From contig NC_085841.1 in NCBI RefSeq assembly GCF_035594765.1, positions 258,312,689 through 258,376,688 of the forward strand: a stretch of 64,000 nucleotides of DNA, in the 5' to 3' direction. How positions within the stretch are numbered: the stretch's first letter is position 1; the number at the start of each line of letters is the position of its first letter. This DNA comes from Anolis carolinensis. Taxonomy: Eukaryota. Position numbers and translations under genes: made by a program. The notes under the pieces were generated by a model. That model worked only from the letters and a program-made list of their open reading frames with translations. It ran no database searches and was not told where the DNA came from. This document shows, one piece after another, positions 2,210 to 27,158 of this stretch.

Positions 2210-2587
2210 ATAGTAAAGACAGCTGACAGGAAGAGAATCAGAATATTTGAAATGTAGTTCTGGAGGAAACCCACTGATATTGAGACTGCAAAAAAGACAA
2301 ATATATGAGTTTGAGAACAAGTCATGCCTGAATCTTTCAAAAAGCCACAATTACTAAACTGAGGCTAATGTATTTTGCACATACCATGAGACAACATGAC
2401 TCATTAGAAAAGACAATAACTCTTGGTAAAGTTGAAGGAAGCAGGAAAAGGACAAGACCACATTACAGGTAGAACGCCTCAATCAAGGAAGCCACAACTC
2501 TGAATTTGCATGAACTGAGATCTCTTGGGAGTCTCTTATTCACAGGGTTATCATAAATCAAAGCTGATTTAGTGGCAAATAACAACA
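2210..2587 (+). mobile_element. Old RTE-clade (BovB-like) LINE 3' fragment
   Basis: Degenerate match to the younger copy at 40085-40470 (GCTGACAGGAAGAGAATC...TGGAGGAAA...GGTAAAGTTGAAGGAAGCAGGAAAAG...) ending in a CAA tail. Confidence 0.7.
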
Positions 2588-3267
2588 GCTGGGCTGTTGT
2601 GGTAACAAATTAACTGCTCTCTTGGATGATGGGTGTTGTCTTAGGTTGTTCTGATAAAAGACTAAGTGTCTAAAAGTAACAGAAAAACACACATATGTGT
2701 AAAGAAGGGTGCCAGAAGAGACATACACTGAAAATCTTTCATCAGGAATTGAAGGTGTATGGTTGTAATTTATATTTACTTGGGTTTTTTTTTTTACAGA
2801 ATGTATACCATGATTCTTATTGTAAAGAGTTCTGGGCAGCTTATAATAAAATCAATTATAATAATTTAATATGCAAGACAGTTTTTTAAAAAATAAGAAT
2901 ACTTTATATACATTGCATAATTTAAAAGGTGATGTTAAATTGATATAAAATTATGTTTAGTGATATTTTTTTTAATGTTGAGTGTTGAATAAGAGCGACA
3001 GACCTGAAAAATACTACAGTATGACACCCAGAACAAAAGGAGCGATCCAGCATATTTTCCTGGTAGGAGTAACATGATGCCCAATTACATTTAATGGCAA
3101 AAATTGTTCAACTAATGAGAGAAAATGCATTTTTCCACCCAGTGTCATTAACCTGTGGGGGAAGTCCTGGCAATCAGAAAACTCTGATATTCACACTCTC
3201 CCACACACATAGTTATTAAAATATCATGTAGACTGTCAAAAACAATAGTCAAGAGAGAGAGAGAGGG

Positions 3268-3662
3268 AGGAGGAAAGGAGAGGGGTGAGAGGGTCAAATG
3301 GAAATTCTTCCTCTTTGTTGTTCTTTCTTTCCACCCACCTGCTAACCCTATATTGGGCCATCTATATGAATAATTGCAGTGGTTTGTAGTGTAAAAGGCC
3401 GGCATTACATTCAAATGAGCTAGCCAAGGTGCTGAACCTATTTGAGTGAATCAAGTTCAACACAGGGGATAGTTCCTTTAAAAACCCCTAGTCGAAGCAC
3501 CCTGGCATCTAGCTTCGTCTTGACTCTCTTACTCAATTACTAGTCTTTGTATCTTCTCCCAAGCTTTGTGTCCTTGAAGAGTCATCAGATGAGCTTCCTC
3601 ATTAGAAAGGAACCTGGGCCACAAATGCCATTTGGATCATTTTTGTATTTCCTTTTCTAATG
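3268..3662 (+). repeat. Left arm (probable source) of inverted duplication paired with 6221-6587
   Basis: Reverse complement matches 6221-6587 except three substitutions and a 28-nt indel; ORFs 3148-3414(-) and 6441-6695(+) share their first 49 residues. Confidence 0.97.
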
Positions 3663-4213
3663 AAAGCGCCCCATGAGCATGCATCCCCATGAAACAGCAT
3701 GATTTTTATTTCCTGAGCAATGGACTGCTGCTTGGAGTAAGAGTGTAAAGATCAGCGCTACAGGAGAGATAATGGTCTGCCTATTTTAAGGTAAACAGGG
3801 AATGTGTATGCGAGAGTGACAGGGGAGCTAAAAAAAATAAAGGGGGAAAAGGGGTGGATTAAGTTTAGGGTATTAATCCAATGGGCAGGGGGAGTTTTAC
3901 AAAGATCTCTTCCACTCTTTCCACTTTAAAAGTCTACACTCTCATGTGTGAATGCTATAGCAGAGTAGTTTTCAGTAAATAAAGAATTTTGAACTTCATA
4001 TGTACAAGGGTGTCCCTGCTATCCTTTTATTGGCAGGTAAAGACTTTTTCATTACAAAACACTTCCAGAACTAAAGGTTTTTATACATAGAGCTTCAGAG
4101 AGTGCAGTATTGTTTTTATTGAGCTGTTGTTGATTGCGTTTGAGAATCCTGGAGGAAATTTTGGGAGAAAAATTGAAGACAATGATGATGAGGATGATAG
4201 ATTATTATTACTC

Positions 4214-4413
4214 TGTGGTTTGAGTGTTGGACTATGATTTTGGATCAAGGTTTGAATCCCTGCTTGGCCATGGAAACCCACTGGGTGGACTTGGGCAAGT
4301 CATACTGTCTTAGTTTCCTCTGAGCAAATCTTGCCAAGAAAACCCTGTGATAATTTCACCTTTGGGTAGCCATGTTGGAAATTATTTGAAGGCACACAGC
4401 TACAACAACAACA
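4214..4413 (+). mobile_element. tRNA-headed CORE-like SINE with RTE-type tail
   Basis: B-box-like GGTTTGAATCCC, CORE-like CTGGGTGGACTTGGGCAAGTCA, tail TTGAAGGCACACAGCTACAACAAC. Confidence 0.75.
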
Positions 4414-4442
4414 CATATATACAGAGCTATACACTTAAACTA

Positions 4443-4644
4443 GTTGTTGTGCACCTTCAAATATTTTCTGACTTAGCTACCTAAAGGTGAAACTATTATG
4501 GGATTTTCTTGGTTAGACTTCTGAGAGTTTTGCCTTTGCCTTCCTCTGAGGCTGAGAGAGTGTGACTTGCCCAAGGCCAGCGAATTGGCTTCAGTGACCA
4601 AGCAGGAATTCAAACTTTGTCTCCAGAGTTGTGAACCAACACAC
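4443..4644 (-). mobile_element. Same SINE family, opposite strand, tail-to-tail with 4214-4413
   Basis: TTTGCCTTCCTCTGAGGCTGAGAGAGTGTGACTTGCCCAAGG is the reverse complement of the family body seen at 16500-16550. Confidence 0.75.
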
Positions 4645-5020
4645 AGATGCTTATTCCATATATACGTACACAGAAGTTCCCTAAGAGACATACAGTAAGG
4701 GATAAACAAGACCAACACCCAGCTGTACTCTTTAACACAACTGATATGATATATAGACAATAACAAAGCTAATCTAGTCTAGCATTCAATTTCCCACAGA
4801 TGGTCTCGAAACGTCTGTGGGAAAGCTGCAGGCAGGAGTTGAACAGCTCTCTGTTACTATTATTTCCCAGCAACTGGCATTTAGAGGCTTGTTTCCTCTG
4901 ATCTTGGAAACTTCAAATAGTCATCATGGCTATTAGCCACTGGCAGCCATTAGGAAGACCATGAGTTTATCTAATCTCTTTCCAAGGTTTGTGGCCATGC
5001 CCACACCTTGAGAAAACAAA

Positions 5021-5097
5021 CAGGGTGTTTGAAAAAGAACTCCCTAGTTTTAAGTATAAATACATTGAAACTAGGGAGTTCTTTTTCAAACACCATG
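5021..5097. mobile_element. 77-bp palindromic Tc1/mariner-type MITE
   Basis: 27-bp perfect inverted repeat 5024-5050 / 5068-5094 with CAGGGTG-type end and 17-nt spacer. Confidence 0.8.
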
Positions 5098-5164
5098 TTT
5101 TTCATTATCTAAGTGAAGGATAATCCTCAGTTCCTACATCATGAGAGAGGGAGTCTAGCACATA

Positions 5165-5394
5165 GTTATAAAAACTTTGATATCACTTTAACTGCCATGC
5201 ACCTGTTCTCCGGATCTTTGCGATTATATGTTTCATAAGGCAACTGGAATTCTCTGCTTCAGTTGCTGGAAATCCTAAGCACCAGAGGAGTTGCTGGAAA
5301 TCCTAAGCACCTCAGTGAACTACAGATTCCATACAGTGCATCCATGATTGTTAAAGAAGAATCAAAGTGCTATCATGCAGTGTGGATATGCCCC
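5165..5394. mobile_element. Old Harbinger-like MITE with an internal 23-nt direct repeat
   Basis: CACTTTAACTGCCATG...ATGATTGTTAAAG subterminal inversion, end GCAGTGTGGATATGCCCC; AGTTGCTGGAAATCCTAAGCACC at 5261-5283 and 5289-5311. Confidence 0.5.
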
Positions 5395-6220
5395 AAAAGA
5401 GAGGCACACAAATACCTGTTCTCCCTTTGCTTTTGCACATCATGTATATGCATATGATACATATTTTTACATCTCTCTATCATGTCCCTGCTTTTCTTCC
5501 CTGAACTGGAAAACCCAATAACTCCTCTTCATAGGGGATCTGCTCCAGCACTTTACCATTTTGGGTTGCGCCTGTCTGTCTCTTTTTCTGAGCTCTAAAA
5601 CATCATTTAAAAATCAAATGATTGCCCCACAACCACAACAGCTGTACTACTTTGGAAAAGACATCTGGATCCCACCAAACAAACTGAGCATTCATTGCAC
5701 AATAAAATAATCTCTTGGAAAGGCCCTTGGGTGGCCCTGCTGCAAGCTTTCTGGGATGAATCATCATTGCTCATTCAAGATCCTGAGCTTTCTAAAGCCT
5801 TCTATTATCTACCAGATTGTTCAGCCTTAAAAACATTTTTCATGCAGCAAATGAAAGCAACGCAAAACACAAGTGGGGGCTTATATTCATGCAATGGTTC
5901 ATGAGATTAAAACAATCACAATATTAACACAAAGCCTTTTTATGGTGAAAGACCGGTTAAATGGCAAGGGTAGGTAGGTGAGCTCATGATACTGAGAACC
6001 AGTAGAGGTATGTTTGAAGTTAAAATTAAAGAATAAGAAAACACAGAGCATTAGTCTGTGGATTGCTTTATACATTGTTTTCCTTATATAATGTGCTAGA
6101 AATGAACACAGTGTTACTTGTGAAGGGCAATGGGAGTGTTTATTTTGATTAGGAAGCACACGGCTTGAGAAAGCTGGCTTCAAACATGAATAACTTGTAA
6201 CTTTCATGCCAGTGGTTTGA

Positions 6221-6587
6221 CATTAGAAAAGGAAATACAAAAATGTTCCAAATGGCATTTGTGGCCCAGGTTCCTTTCTAATTAGGAAGCTCATCTGATG
6301 ACTCTTCAAGGACACAAAGCTTGGGAGAAGACACAAAGACTAGTAATTGCCAGGGTGCTTCGACTAGGGGTTTTTAAAGGAACTATCCCCTGTGTTGAAC
6401 TTGATTCACTCAAATAGGTTCAGCACCTTGGCTAGCTCATTTGAATGTAATGCCGGCCTTTTACACTACAAACCACTGCAATTATTCATATAGATGGCCC
6501 AATATAGGGTTAGCAGGTGGGTGGAAAGAAAGAACAACAAAGAGGAAGAATTTCCATTTGACCCTCTCACCCCTCTCCTTTCCTCCT
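6221..6587 (-). repeat. Right arm (probable derived copy) of inverted duplication of 3268-3662
   Basis: Base-by-base comparison; abuts a CR1 3' end with no spacer. Confidence 0.97.
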
Positions 6588-6707
6588 GGCTGGATGGCCA
6601 TCTGTCGGGGGTGCTTTGAATGCGATTTCCTGCTTCTTAGCAGGGGGTTGGACTGGATGGCCCATGTGGTCTCTTCCAACTCTACTATTCTATGATTCTA
6701 TGATTCT
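6588..6707 (+). mobile_element. Young CR1 LINE, terminal 120 nt
   Basis: Ends (ATTCTATG)n; about three differences from the copy at 26743-26862. Confidence 0.93.
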
Positions 6708-6759
6708 GGACTAAAATCTAGAGCAAATCTGTCTCCTTATTTCTATGGGAAACATCCAT

Positions 6760-6895
6760 CACTGTTCAGATGGAATATGGTCGTAAGAATTTGGTTTTCC
6801 TCTTGACACATCTCTCCCTTTCGCTCTCCATTCATGCTTCTTCAAATCCCACAGCACTGCTGGTCACAGCTGATCTCCAGTTTGATGCTCTAGTG
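6760..6895 (-). mobile_element. RTE-1-like LINE fragment
   Basis: Minus strand reads ACTGGAGATCAGCTGTGACCAGCAGTGCTGTGGGATTTGAAGAAGCATGAATGGAGAGCGAAAGGGAGA, recalled as the lizard RTE-1 ORF end. Confidence 0.55.
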
Positions 6896-8478
6896 TCTTG
6901 CAGAAAATGTTTGGTAACTTGACCCTGGCTGTAAGAGGCATTTACTTTTAATATATTGATTAGGGCTTTTGAATATTACCCTCTCAATTTAAATCTGTGA
7001 GAATTTAAATCTCTGAGAATTATCTGTACATGTCTGTGTGTGCATGTGCATATATTCATGACGTCTCCTTTCAGAAGCCTTCTTCAGCTCAGCAATATTC
7101 ATTTGTGACACTAGATAAATAGCACTCAATATGCATTAAAAATTAATCTGTATAATAATCGTGTATTAATAATTAACTTTGATATATTTCACTCCGAGCT
7201 GTCATGTCTCCTGAGTAGTCTTTTCCTTCAACTTTCTCCACACCTCCAGCTCCTTTATGAGCAAAAATGATGGTGGATGCAAAGGGTCATCAAAATGGAA
7301 ACATATTGATTCACATACCCAGGTCCTCACCCTCTGGAATGATTTCTAATACTCCAAATGCATAGATCTCACCATTAGTAGAGAGGAAGACACAAAGACT
7401 GATGTCAGAAGCAGCAGCACTATGTTGAGTCAAATGAAAGCATCTACGGTTCAATAAAACAAAGTTGCAGCCGATGGCCACAAAGAAGCACAACGGCATC
7501 ACACTTCATATTGTTTTACTACATATTACTGGGAAGAATGGAAAAGGAGAGGGAAGAGGTGGAACAAGACATAAAAATACCAAATGCTAATTTAGTCCAC
7601 AATCCTGTTTTCACAGTAGAAATTGGAAAGCCCAGATGTAGGACCGGAGGATAACAGCCCTCTCTTTATGTTCCTCTGTTGTGCACAGTGCTGTTACAGA
7701 TGGAAAATAGGCAATTGCATAACCACACAGAGTTTGCTACCTGCTAAATGTCTGGCTCTGGTGGGTCCTGAATGCCAGGAACTCTGAGCAAAGTGGCAGG
7801 GAAAATTGCCTGTACATGGAGGAGCAATGGGGGGTAGGGGACAATGAATGTACTGCTCCTGGTGAGCTGCTGCCTAAGGCAGCTACCTCCCTCCACTTAA
7901 TGGTAGAGTCAGGCCTGTTACTGATAATGAATTTTGTTCTTCCAGTAGTGAAGATGTAAGACATCTCATTATGACTGTAACATAACTCCTTTCACAGGGT
8001 AATTAACATGTTGGTTATTTTCAAGATTATGGAGTGTAGCCTTTCTAAATGGTGAAGGAGGAATGAAGGGGGAATGAGCTGTGTTTTGTGTTGATAACTT
8101 GGTTTTTTTTTAAGGGTGTTGAGGCAACAAGGAAGGGAGCAGAAGAAAAGAGTGTTTGCACTTTCTCTATTTCTCCAGGCCACCTTGCATGTTACTGCAA
8201 AGGGGTCTCAAATAAGTGGGAGTAGGCGGAGGGCACAGAAGTCTGAAGGGGAAAGGAGGATTAGCAAAAAAAACTCCTCATTCTCCACTTTCTGCTCATG
8301 GGAGTGTCCAACAGATCAAAGAGCTTTTTAGCTACAGAAAGAACAGAACTGGAAACAGGCTACTGTGGCAACAGTCTTTCTGGCATTATTTTTGTATTCA
8401 TAACCCTTGAGGTTTTTTATGGAAGGAAAAACAATTTATAGGATTCAGTAGAAACCAGTTGATGAAGACAGTCTAAAG

Positions 8479-26741: not shown

Positions 26742-27158
26742 TAGAATCATAGAATCATAGAATAGTAGAGTTGGAAGAGACCTCATGAGCCATCCAGTCC
26801 AACCCCCCGCTAAGAAGCAGGAAATCGCATTCAAAGCACCCCCGACAGATGGCCATCCAGCCTCTGCTTAAAAGCCTCCAAAGAAGGAGTCTCCACCACA
26901 GTCCGGGGGAGAGTTCCACTGTCGAACAGCTCTCACAGGGAGGAAGTTCTTCCTGATGTTCAGGTGGAATCTCCTTTCCTGTAGTTTGAAGCCATTGTTC
27001 CGTGTCCTAGTCTGCAGGGCAGCAGAAAACAAGCTTGCTCCCTCCTCCCTATGACTTCCCCTCACATATTTGTACATGGCTATCATGTCTCCTCTCAGTC
27101 TTCTCTTCTGCAGGCTAAACATGCCCAGCTCTTTAAGCCGCTCCTCATAGGGCTTGTT
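26742..27158 (-). mobile_element. Young 5'-truncated CR1 LINE
   Basis: (CATAGAAT)n tail; ORF2 end MFSLQKRRLRGDMIAMYKY...RRFHLNIRKNFL. Confidence 0.95.

What the first reader, a model, noticed from the sequence alone, without database searches (positions are those of the whole stretch)
3268..6707. Local unique DNA copied in inverted orientation and fused to a young CR1 tail
Seen: 6221-6587 is the reverse complement of 3268-3662 and joins directly, with no spacer or microhomology, to the last 120 nt of a young CR1 (6588-6707). The copied DNA matches no repeat I recognise and no TSD is evident. Inference: one integration event in which CR1 reverse transcription or gap repair switched template to DNA or nascent RNA about 3 kb away. 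An alternative is an inversion of 3663-6220 with staggered breaks. The arms could form about 365 bp of dsRNA or drive flipping of the 2.56-kb spacer.
Basis: partly seen in the sequence, partly recalled or inferred. Interest (0 to 1): 0.72.

Follow-up and report, generated by a model that had tools for sequence, protein, structure and literature searches.

The report
CR1 insertion with far-reaching mirror copy
In a lizard genome a 367-base mirror-image copy of DNA lying 2.6 kb away is joined directly to a short, young CR1 jumping-gene fragment, likely because the broken chromosome end folded back and copied itself during the insertion; this rare by-product is already known from human LINE-1, and this case is larger and reaches further.

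Summary
The structure is real. 6221-6587 is the reverse complement of 3268-3662 (240 nt identical, one 28-nt gap, 3 substitutions) and abuts a 120-nt 3' end of a young CR1 family with no microhomology. The arm has two full copies in the genome. Contigs of 4 of 4 runs bridge the spacer/arm junction, so it is not a misassembly; no empty allele was seen. Among 180 other family copies, none has this anatomy and 2 carry a long local copy at the 5' junction, against 0.16 expected (criteria set after looking). One is a 210-nt inverted snap-back that must have been copied from DNA. Best reading (0.55): one insertion in which the resected upstream end folded back 2.6 kb, copied leftwards and was joined to the CR1 cDNA. 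This anatomy is published for human L1 (PMC10191854; PMC11702581 Fig. S9C), and the scan noted an L1 case in a mammal (e1-9895691). An RNA template and an inverted spacer are not excluded. No host gene was found; dsRNA and flipping are untested. A known kind of event in a new LINE clade, at larger scale.

The parts
3268..3662 (+). Donor arm, 395 nt of non-coding, mostly single-copy DNA
   Evidence: no Rfam match; no Pfam match in overlapping frames of 48 aa or more
3410..3483 (.). Low-copy repeat fragment inside the donor arm
   Evidence: 15 other matches at 78-97% over 33-75 nt
3506..3533 (+). 28 nt present in the donor and missing from the copy; CA at both ends (could equally be 3508-3535)
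3663..6220 (.). Spacer of 2558 nt, the inferred loop of the foldback; its ancestral orientation is not known
   Evidence: both ends single-copy
6219..6221 (+). GAC, left half of a possible 3-nt target-site duplication (too short to establish)
6221..6587 (-). Inverted copy of the donor arm, 367 nt
   Evidence: left junction bridged in 4 of 4 runs
6588..6707 (+). 5'-truncated young CR1, 120 nt, ending in the 8-nt tandem tail
   Evidence: (7053 exact matches to its first 54 nt)
6709..6711 (+). GAC, right half of the possible 3-nt target-site duplication

Best explanation
A 367-nt inverted copy of DNA 2.6 kb upstream is fused to the 5' end of a 120-nt CR1 fragment, and it was likely made in one insertion event by foldback DNA synthesis at the upstream broken end. 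Inferred steps: (1) CR1 ORF2 nicked at about 6708 and reverse transcribed 120 nt; (2) the upstream end at about 6220 was resected to leave a single-stranded 3' tail of about 3 kb; (3) that 3' end folded back on its own strand at 3662 and was extended leftwards to 3268, skipping 28 nt between two CA dinucleotides; (4) the new strand was displaced and joined without homology to the CR1 cDNA, and the gaps were filled. The product is an inherited passenger allele with no shown function. Shown: the anatomy, the copy number, one junction in four sequencing runs, family-level excess of local copies. Inferred: single event, order of steps, DNA template, which end primed.
For: Exact abutment of arm and CR1 5' end; chance abutment to one of 7053 such copies is about 4e-5 (rough, counts only exact family matches). 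Ages compatible: 3 differences in 367 nt between arms, 0 private differences in 115 nt of CR1. Same family adds locally copied sequence at 5' junctions: 9-11-nt direct copies of the downstream flank in 4 of 95 versus control mean 0.5, maximum 2; copies with 40 or more unique nt in 2 of 180 loci versus 26 of 28,710 control positions, Poisson P about 0.012. L185 holds a 100%-identical inverted copy of its own tail plus 92 nt of downstream target DNA, which can only have been copied from DNA. Same arrangement published for human L1: foldback inverted duplication upstream of the target in 3+1 insertions, 0.3%+0.1%, 52-220 bp (PMC10191854); Fig. S9C model, and no homology at the L1/inverted-end junction in Fig. 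S9A (PMC11702581 supplement). Contigs 5069-6276 bridge the spacer/arm junction in 4 of 4 runs from 4 studies.
Against: No good priming homology at the foldback point: 0 nt exact; the DNA duplex energy of the upstream end at that site ranks only in the best 5-32% of about 6100 sites, depending on primer length, whereas published cases had 6-14 bp. The loop (2.56 kb) and copy (367 nt) exceed the published sizes I saw. 0 of 180 family copies show this exact anatomy. L185 primed from the cDNA end, not the upstream end, and L075's copy may belong to a neighbouring older CR1. The screen's criteria were set after L185 was seen, and the window's own arm (92% by BLAST because of the gap) would fail its 95% cut and was exempted. 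No TSD can be established and no empty allele was seen. All 3 substitutions lie in one third of the arm (P about 0.04, post hoc), which the model does not explain by itself.
Confidence: 0.55

Rival explanations
1. Single event, but the CR1 cDNA end did the copying: the reverse transcriptase jumped from the CR1 RNA to a nascent minus-strand transcript (or to exposed minus-strand DNA) at 3268, copied to 3662, and the product was joined to the upstream end.
For: Polarity fits: the cDNA continues as the + strand of 3268-3662, which needs a minus-strand template. 0 nt homology at the CR1 junction. Co-insertion of local pre-mRNA is reported once for L1 (PMC10191854); cDNA-primed snap-back onto nearby target DNA is reported for R2 (PMC11371274) and seen here in L185. 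A long distance is easier to bridge with an RNA than with 3 kb of resection (inference).
Against: No host gene or strand was identified: 0 of 363 window frames and 0 of 150 (of 306) upstream frames reach a Pfam cut-off, a weak test. The 28-nt gap is not a splice: the GT..AG pair inside it spans 24 nt and would give a different junction (read from the sequence). None of the 3 substitutions forms a cluster of one type.
Confidence: 0.22
2. The 2.56-kb spacer is inverted relative to the ancestor: either the insertion came with an inversion whose left break was staggered by 395 nt, or the spacer flipped later by recombination between the arms.
For: L1-linked inversion of about 0.9 kb beside an insertion is published (PMC11702581 Fig. 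S9A). Short-word contigs cannot phase across a 240-nt perfect repeat, so one search is blind to orientation. No older repeat spans either inner junction to show which is ancestral.
Against: Needs an extra break with a 395-nt stagger, where foldback needs none (inference). No positive evidence.
Confidence: 0.12
3. Two separate events: an inverted duplication arose by ordinary break repair or replication template switching, and the CR1 was captured at its end or inserted nearby, with a later deletion bringing the two together.
For: No TSD ties 6221-6707 into one block. Unique local inverted copies occur away from CR1 ends at a low rate (2 of 28,710 positions). The clustering of substitutions could reflect a more complex history.
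Against: Chance abutment about 4e-5; compatible ages; many single insertions of this family also lack a TSD of 5 nt or more (70 of 95); 120 nt is an ordinary truncation length (9 of 80 copies are 130 nt or shorter).
Confidence: 0.09
4. Assembly artefact: one copy of the arm was duplicated by the assembler.
For: The arms are nearly identical; only 1 of 4 runs lists a contig across the arm/CR1 junction, with 28 nt on the CR1 side, under the tool's 31-nt rule. One run could be the animal that was assembled.
Against: 4 of 4 runs from 4 studies bridge 6220/6221 with 56 nt on the arm side; 3 of 4 list a contig running on past 3663 towards the donor (56, 56 and 29 nt); both letters at 6283 are seen in 3 of 4 runs.
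Confidence: 0.02

Closest known systems
Foldback inversion (inverted duplication) 5' upstream of human L1 target sites, 'process C' (Nam et al., PMC10191854; passages seen)
   Same: Inverted duplicate of upstream target DNA at the 5' head of a LINE insertion; rare (0.3% plus 0.1%).
   Different: Somatic human L1 with TSD and poly(A); 52-220 bp of synthesis. Here CR1, inherited, 367 nt, 2.56 kb from the site, no established TSD.
L1 insertion with inverted duplication or inversion of the reciprocal end (PMC11702581, Fig. S9A-C and S10B; passages; supplement part 3)
   Same: Order donor, spacer, inverted copy, LINE; model of resection, foldback, displacement and ligation to the RT end; no homology at the LINE junction (S9A); slippage deletion inside a templated piece (S10B).
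   Different: Engineered L1 expression in cultured human cells; 6-14 bp priming homology in S9A and B; labelled coordinates of S9C lie within about 135 bp of the site and S9A spans about 0.9 kb.
5' extra nucleotides of zebrafish L2-clade LINEs ZfL2-1 and ZfL2-2, also named CR1-1_DR and CR1-2_DR (PMC4245944; PMC4760211; passages)
   Same: Sequence at the 5' junction copied from flanking DNA during end joining; short 3-5-nt TSD peak stated for L2 and CR1 clades.
   Different: Described as several nucleotides from the immediate flank; the primary paper (Kajikawa 2012) was not read.
Templated insertions in tumour L1 (bioRxiv 10.1101/2024.08.27.596794; passages)
   Same: Non-L1 genomic segment duplicated into the insertion (22 cases).
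   Different: Typically under 250 bp and within 15 bp of the site as the text states.
cDNA snap-back at R2 transgene 5' junctions (PMC11371274; passages)
   Same: cDNA 3' end primes synthesis on itself or on nearby target DNA, giving inverted sequence at the 5' junction; fits sibling L185 closely.
   Different: Engineered, site-specific R2 in rDNA; mostly copies the cDNA itself.

Membership tests
CR1-clade LINE (for 6588-6707) | 3' end shared with a full-length element that encodes APE endonuclease plus RT (ORF2) and an esterase-bearing ORF1 | tested here: met
   Family copy L084 (6.0 kb): RVT_1 E 1e-34, Exo_endo_phos E 2e-16, GDSL esterase E 2e-10
CR1-clade LINE (for 6588-6707) | 8-nt tandem tail instead of poly(A) (diagnostic value recalled, not from a call) | tested here: met
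   Tail present here and parsed in 97 of 100 copies
CR1-clade LINE (for 6588-6707) | RT groups with CR1 rather than L2 in a tree | not tested
   No tree built; CR1 versus L2 rests on the tail
LINE-associated foldback inverted duplication | Inverted copy of upstream target DNA directly at the LINE 5' end | tested here: met
LINE-associated foldback inverted duplication | Copied DNA is local and single-copy | tested here: met
   2 full copies in the genome; about 70 nt is a low-copy repeat
LINE-associated foldback inverted duplication | Microhomology at the self-priming point | tested here: inconclusive
   0 nt exact; rank 5-32% by duplex energy; the pre-insertion end is unknown, so shared bases may be hidden in the start of the arm
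LINE-associated foldback inverted duplication | TPRT hallmark: target-site duplication around the whole block | tested here: inconclusive
   Only 3 nt; family shows 5 nt or more in 25 of 95 versus control mean 4.5
LINE-associated foldback inverted duplication | Block absent as one unit from the pre-insertion allele, spacer in unchanged orientation | tested here: inconclusive
   4 of 4 runs laid carry the left junction; no empty allele listed; joints table cut short
Co-inserted local pre-mRNA | Donor transcribed on the strand that serves as template (minus strand here) | not testable with these tools
   No host gene identified; no stranded raw reads were offered
L1-type twin priming 5' inversion | The inverted piece is LINE RNA sequence | tested here: not met
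   The arm matches none of the 100 CR1 loci used as a repeat mask and is local DNA

The most novel reading that the evidence does not exclude
CR1 integration in the lizard germline is a recurrent maker of local copies (about 1% of young insertions, 95% interval 0.1-4%), occasionally reaching kilobases, and so seeds inverted repeats of unique DNA across the genome; this pair of arms has since let the 2.56-kb spacer flip or convert, which would explain the perfect outer 240 nt beside a diverged inner 129 nt and make it a recurrent inversion polymorphism born from one retrotransposition.
Probability: 0.2. Interest if true: 0.6.

Novelty: new member of a known kind. Interest (0 to 1): 0.33.

Why it matters
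It extends a by-product described for human L1 in somatic and cultured cells to a CR1 in a reptile germline, and at larger scale: if the foldback reading is right, about 3 kb of single-stranded DNA was exposed at the insertion and the repair was inherited. A genome with more than 7000 near-identical young copies makes the frequency, size range and template (DNA or RNA) of such events countable by one genome-wide screen. No effect on a host gene is shown. I found no paper on such events for CR1 in searches (open-access library only; PMC1716264 and PMC1190285 were not held, and Kajikawa 2012 was not read).

Tried and rejected
Older repeat across an inner junction to fix ancestral orientation: none. 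DNA search of the genome with the 120-nt tail returned nothing because common words are skipped; exact patterns were used instead. First-pass screens with a loose cut (18 nt, 90%) gave 5 of 101 including the window versus 56 of 4063 control positions and 4 of 80 versus 31 of 3427; on inspection most were short chance hits, tandem arrays (L022), neighbouring repeats (L023, L028, L047, L145) or a likely LTR pair (L101). Short inverted or upstream-derived extras were not clearly above control (1, 1 and 2 of 95 versus maxima 4, 3 and 1). Homeology of the downstream flank with the foldback site: none (60% of background scores as high). Splicing as the cause of the 28-nt gap: rejected from the sequence. 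Host gene: Pfam scans gave 3 sub-threshold hits among 363 window frames and none among 150 of 306 upstream frames; no CpG island in the window or 60 kb upstream. Rfam over 2500-7500: only sub-threshold hairpin hits at about 5010-5110. No RNA holder listed. A-to-I editing could not be examined with contigs. PMC2912911 passages added nothing specific. PMC5389967 passages: CR1 is the most polymorphic LINE clade in the green anole, used as background only.

Full report
Observation. The arms are as described: 3268-3662 and the reverse complement of 6221-6587 align over 395 columns, with 240 nt identical next to the CR1 and 129 nt at 98% beyond a gap. The copy lacks 28 nt bounded by CA on both sides and differs at three positions, all in the part far from the CR1. 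It abuts 6588 with no added base and no microhomology to either the donor's continuation or the CR1's missing upstream sequence; the spacer/arm junction also shares 0 nt with the donor's continuation. A genome search with the arm gave 17 matches: the two arms and 15 short matches to about 70 nt inside it.

The element. The first 54 nt of 6588-6707 occur exactly 7053 times in the genome. A 6.0-kb member of the family encodes an esterase-bearing ORF1 and an endonuclease plus reverse transcriptase ORF2. With the 8-nt tandem tail this is a CR1-type LINE; the value of the tail as a CR1 mark is recalled, and no tree was built. The fragment equals 62 of 180 fetched copies over its first 115 nt (copies were selected on parts of this tail), and 9 of 80 copies are 130 nt or shorter, so its size is ordinary. 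That the host is a lizard rests on my recall of its repeats and on another note of this scan (e1-9849841), not on a test.

Is it in other animals? Contigs of four runs from four studies were laid on 3663-7700, 4 of the 24 runs listed. In 4 of 4 one unbroken 1208-nt contig covers 5069-6276, across the spacer/arm junction with 56 nt on the arm side, at a depth like that of neighbouring single contigs (depth is not a copy number). Three of 4 list a contig that runs past 3663 by 56, 56 and 29 nt; that these letters are the donor arm is inferred from the lengths. One run (X11) lists a contig 6348-6615 across the arm/CR1 junction without differences, 28 nt on the CR1 side; the table is cut, so the other three are not informative. 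No joint from 6220 to 6708 is listed, but 307 joints were not shown. So misassembly is very unlikely and the allele looks common; the empty site and the spacer's orientation stay unknown, and one run may be the assembled animal. Two hints could not be resolved: in X11 all listed depth at 6283 has the donor letter, and in X1 and X2 a single contig passes through the arm with mixed donor and copy letters; both may be effects of contig simplification.

Does this family do such things elsewhere? I fetched 180 copies with 10 kb each, the first listed on the largest contig for two patterns (179 independent, L185 and L186 being one event). In the first 100, with 5 dropped (2 too close to the locus edge, 3 with an unparsed tail), direct repeats of 5 nt or more flank 25 of 95 against a control mean of 4.5, and 9-11-nt direct copies of the downstream flank precede 4 of 95 against 0.5. 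For long copies (40 or more unique nt, 95% or more identical, ending within 40 nt of the 5' junction) 2 of 180 loci score, against 26 of 28,710 control positions, 2 of them inverted; expected 0.16, P about 0.012. These criteria were set after L185 was seen, control positions are not independent, donors further than about 4-6 kb are invisible, and the window's own arm was exempted from the identity cut. L185 is a 341-nt CR1 preceded by a perfect inverted copy of 118 nt of its own tail and 92 nt of downstream target DNA, which had to be copied from DNA after priming. L075 has a 96-nt direct copy from about 365 nt upstream, lying between two head-to-head CR1 5' ends. None of the 180 has the window's anatomy (95% upper bound about 2%).

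Mechanism. The CR1 lies on the + strand, so its cDNA grew leftwards from about 6708. The inverted copy can be made in two single-event ways. Either the upstream end, single-stranded after resection, folded back at 3662 and was extended to 3268 before being joined to the cDNA; or the cDNA end copied a minus-strand template from 3268 to 3662. The first is the model published for the same arrangement beside human L1 (PMC11702581 Fig. S9C; PMC10191854) and I put it at 0.55. Against it, priming homology is weak (best 5-32% of sites) and about 3 kb of resection is needed. The second (0.22) has precedents in a co-inserted pre-mRNA and R2 snap-back but needs a minus-strand transcript or exposed strand for which I have no evidence: no host gene was found. 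An inverted spacer (0.12) cannot be excluded without an orthologue (searches found no informative repeat). Two separate events (0.09) need a coincidence of about 4e-5 or a later deletion. All steps are inferred from anatomy; none is shown.

Consequences. The arms are predicted to pair over 364 bp if transcribed together, which is expected of any such repeat and says nothing about expression. Flipping of the spacer is possible in principle and invisible to short-word contigs.

Comparison and verdict. It works like, and on the features that could be tested belongs with, LINE-associated foldback inverted duplications; priming homology, TSD and empty allele are inconclusive. It differs in clade (CR1), in being inherited, and in size (367 nt at 2.56 kb, against 52-220 bp, or under 250 bp within 15 bp). 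Flank-copied 5' extras are established for zebrafish L2-clade LINEs. The scan noted an L1 case with a 214-bp copy in a mammal (e1-9895691), unchecked by me. Papers were seen as passages only, plus one supplement part for PMC11702581; supplements of the other papers were not read and may hold larger cases. Searches showed no CR1 report. Verdict: real, new member of a known kind, interest 0.33.

Noticed in passing
   Followed up: partly
L075, about 460 nt upstream of the CR1 5' end, G000:C1 about 13.56 Mb: 96-nt direct copy (99%) of unique DNA from about 365 nt upstream sits between the 5' ends of an older opposite-strand CR1 and a young CR1 with a 6-nt TSD.
   Followed up: partly
L101, G000:C1 about 20.43-20.44 Mb: Two identical copies of at least 193 nt, 5.46 kb apart, one abutting a CR1 5' end; likely the two LTRs of a young LTR element.
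   Followed up: no
L028, G000:C1 about 3.15 Mb: Two CR1 copies head to head about 10-25 nt apart; the young one has a 7-nt TSD and a short addition resembling the downstream flank.
   Followed up: no
L084 and L009: Near full-length CR1 copies of about 6.0 kb, 99% alike; L084 has open ORF1 (GDSL esterase) and ORF2 frames.
   Followed up: partly
window 6247-6587 in runs X1, X2, X3, X11: Contigs combine the donor letter at 6283 with the copy's 28-nt gap; X11 shows only the donor letter at 6283; X3 and X11 have a further variant at 6292. Could be conversion between arms or contig simplification.
   Followed up: no
window 4246-4619: Two inverted copies of a high-copy short repeat form an imperfect hairpin inside the spacer.
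   Followed up: no
window 5018-5100: 36-bp, 94% perfect hairpin of a very high-copy short element; sub-threshold miRNA-like Rfam hits only.
   Followed up: no
window 5261-5311: Two identical 23-nt units 28 nt apart, a small tandem duplication in the spacer.
   Followed up: no
window 26743-27156: Another young CR1 3' end of the same family on the minus strand, 117 of 120 nt identical to 6588-6707.
   Followed up: no
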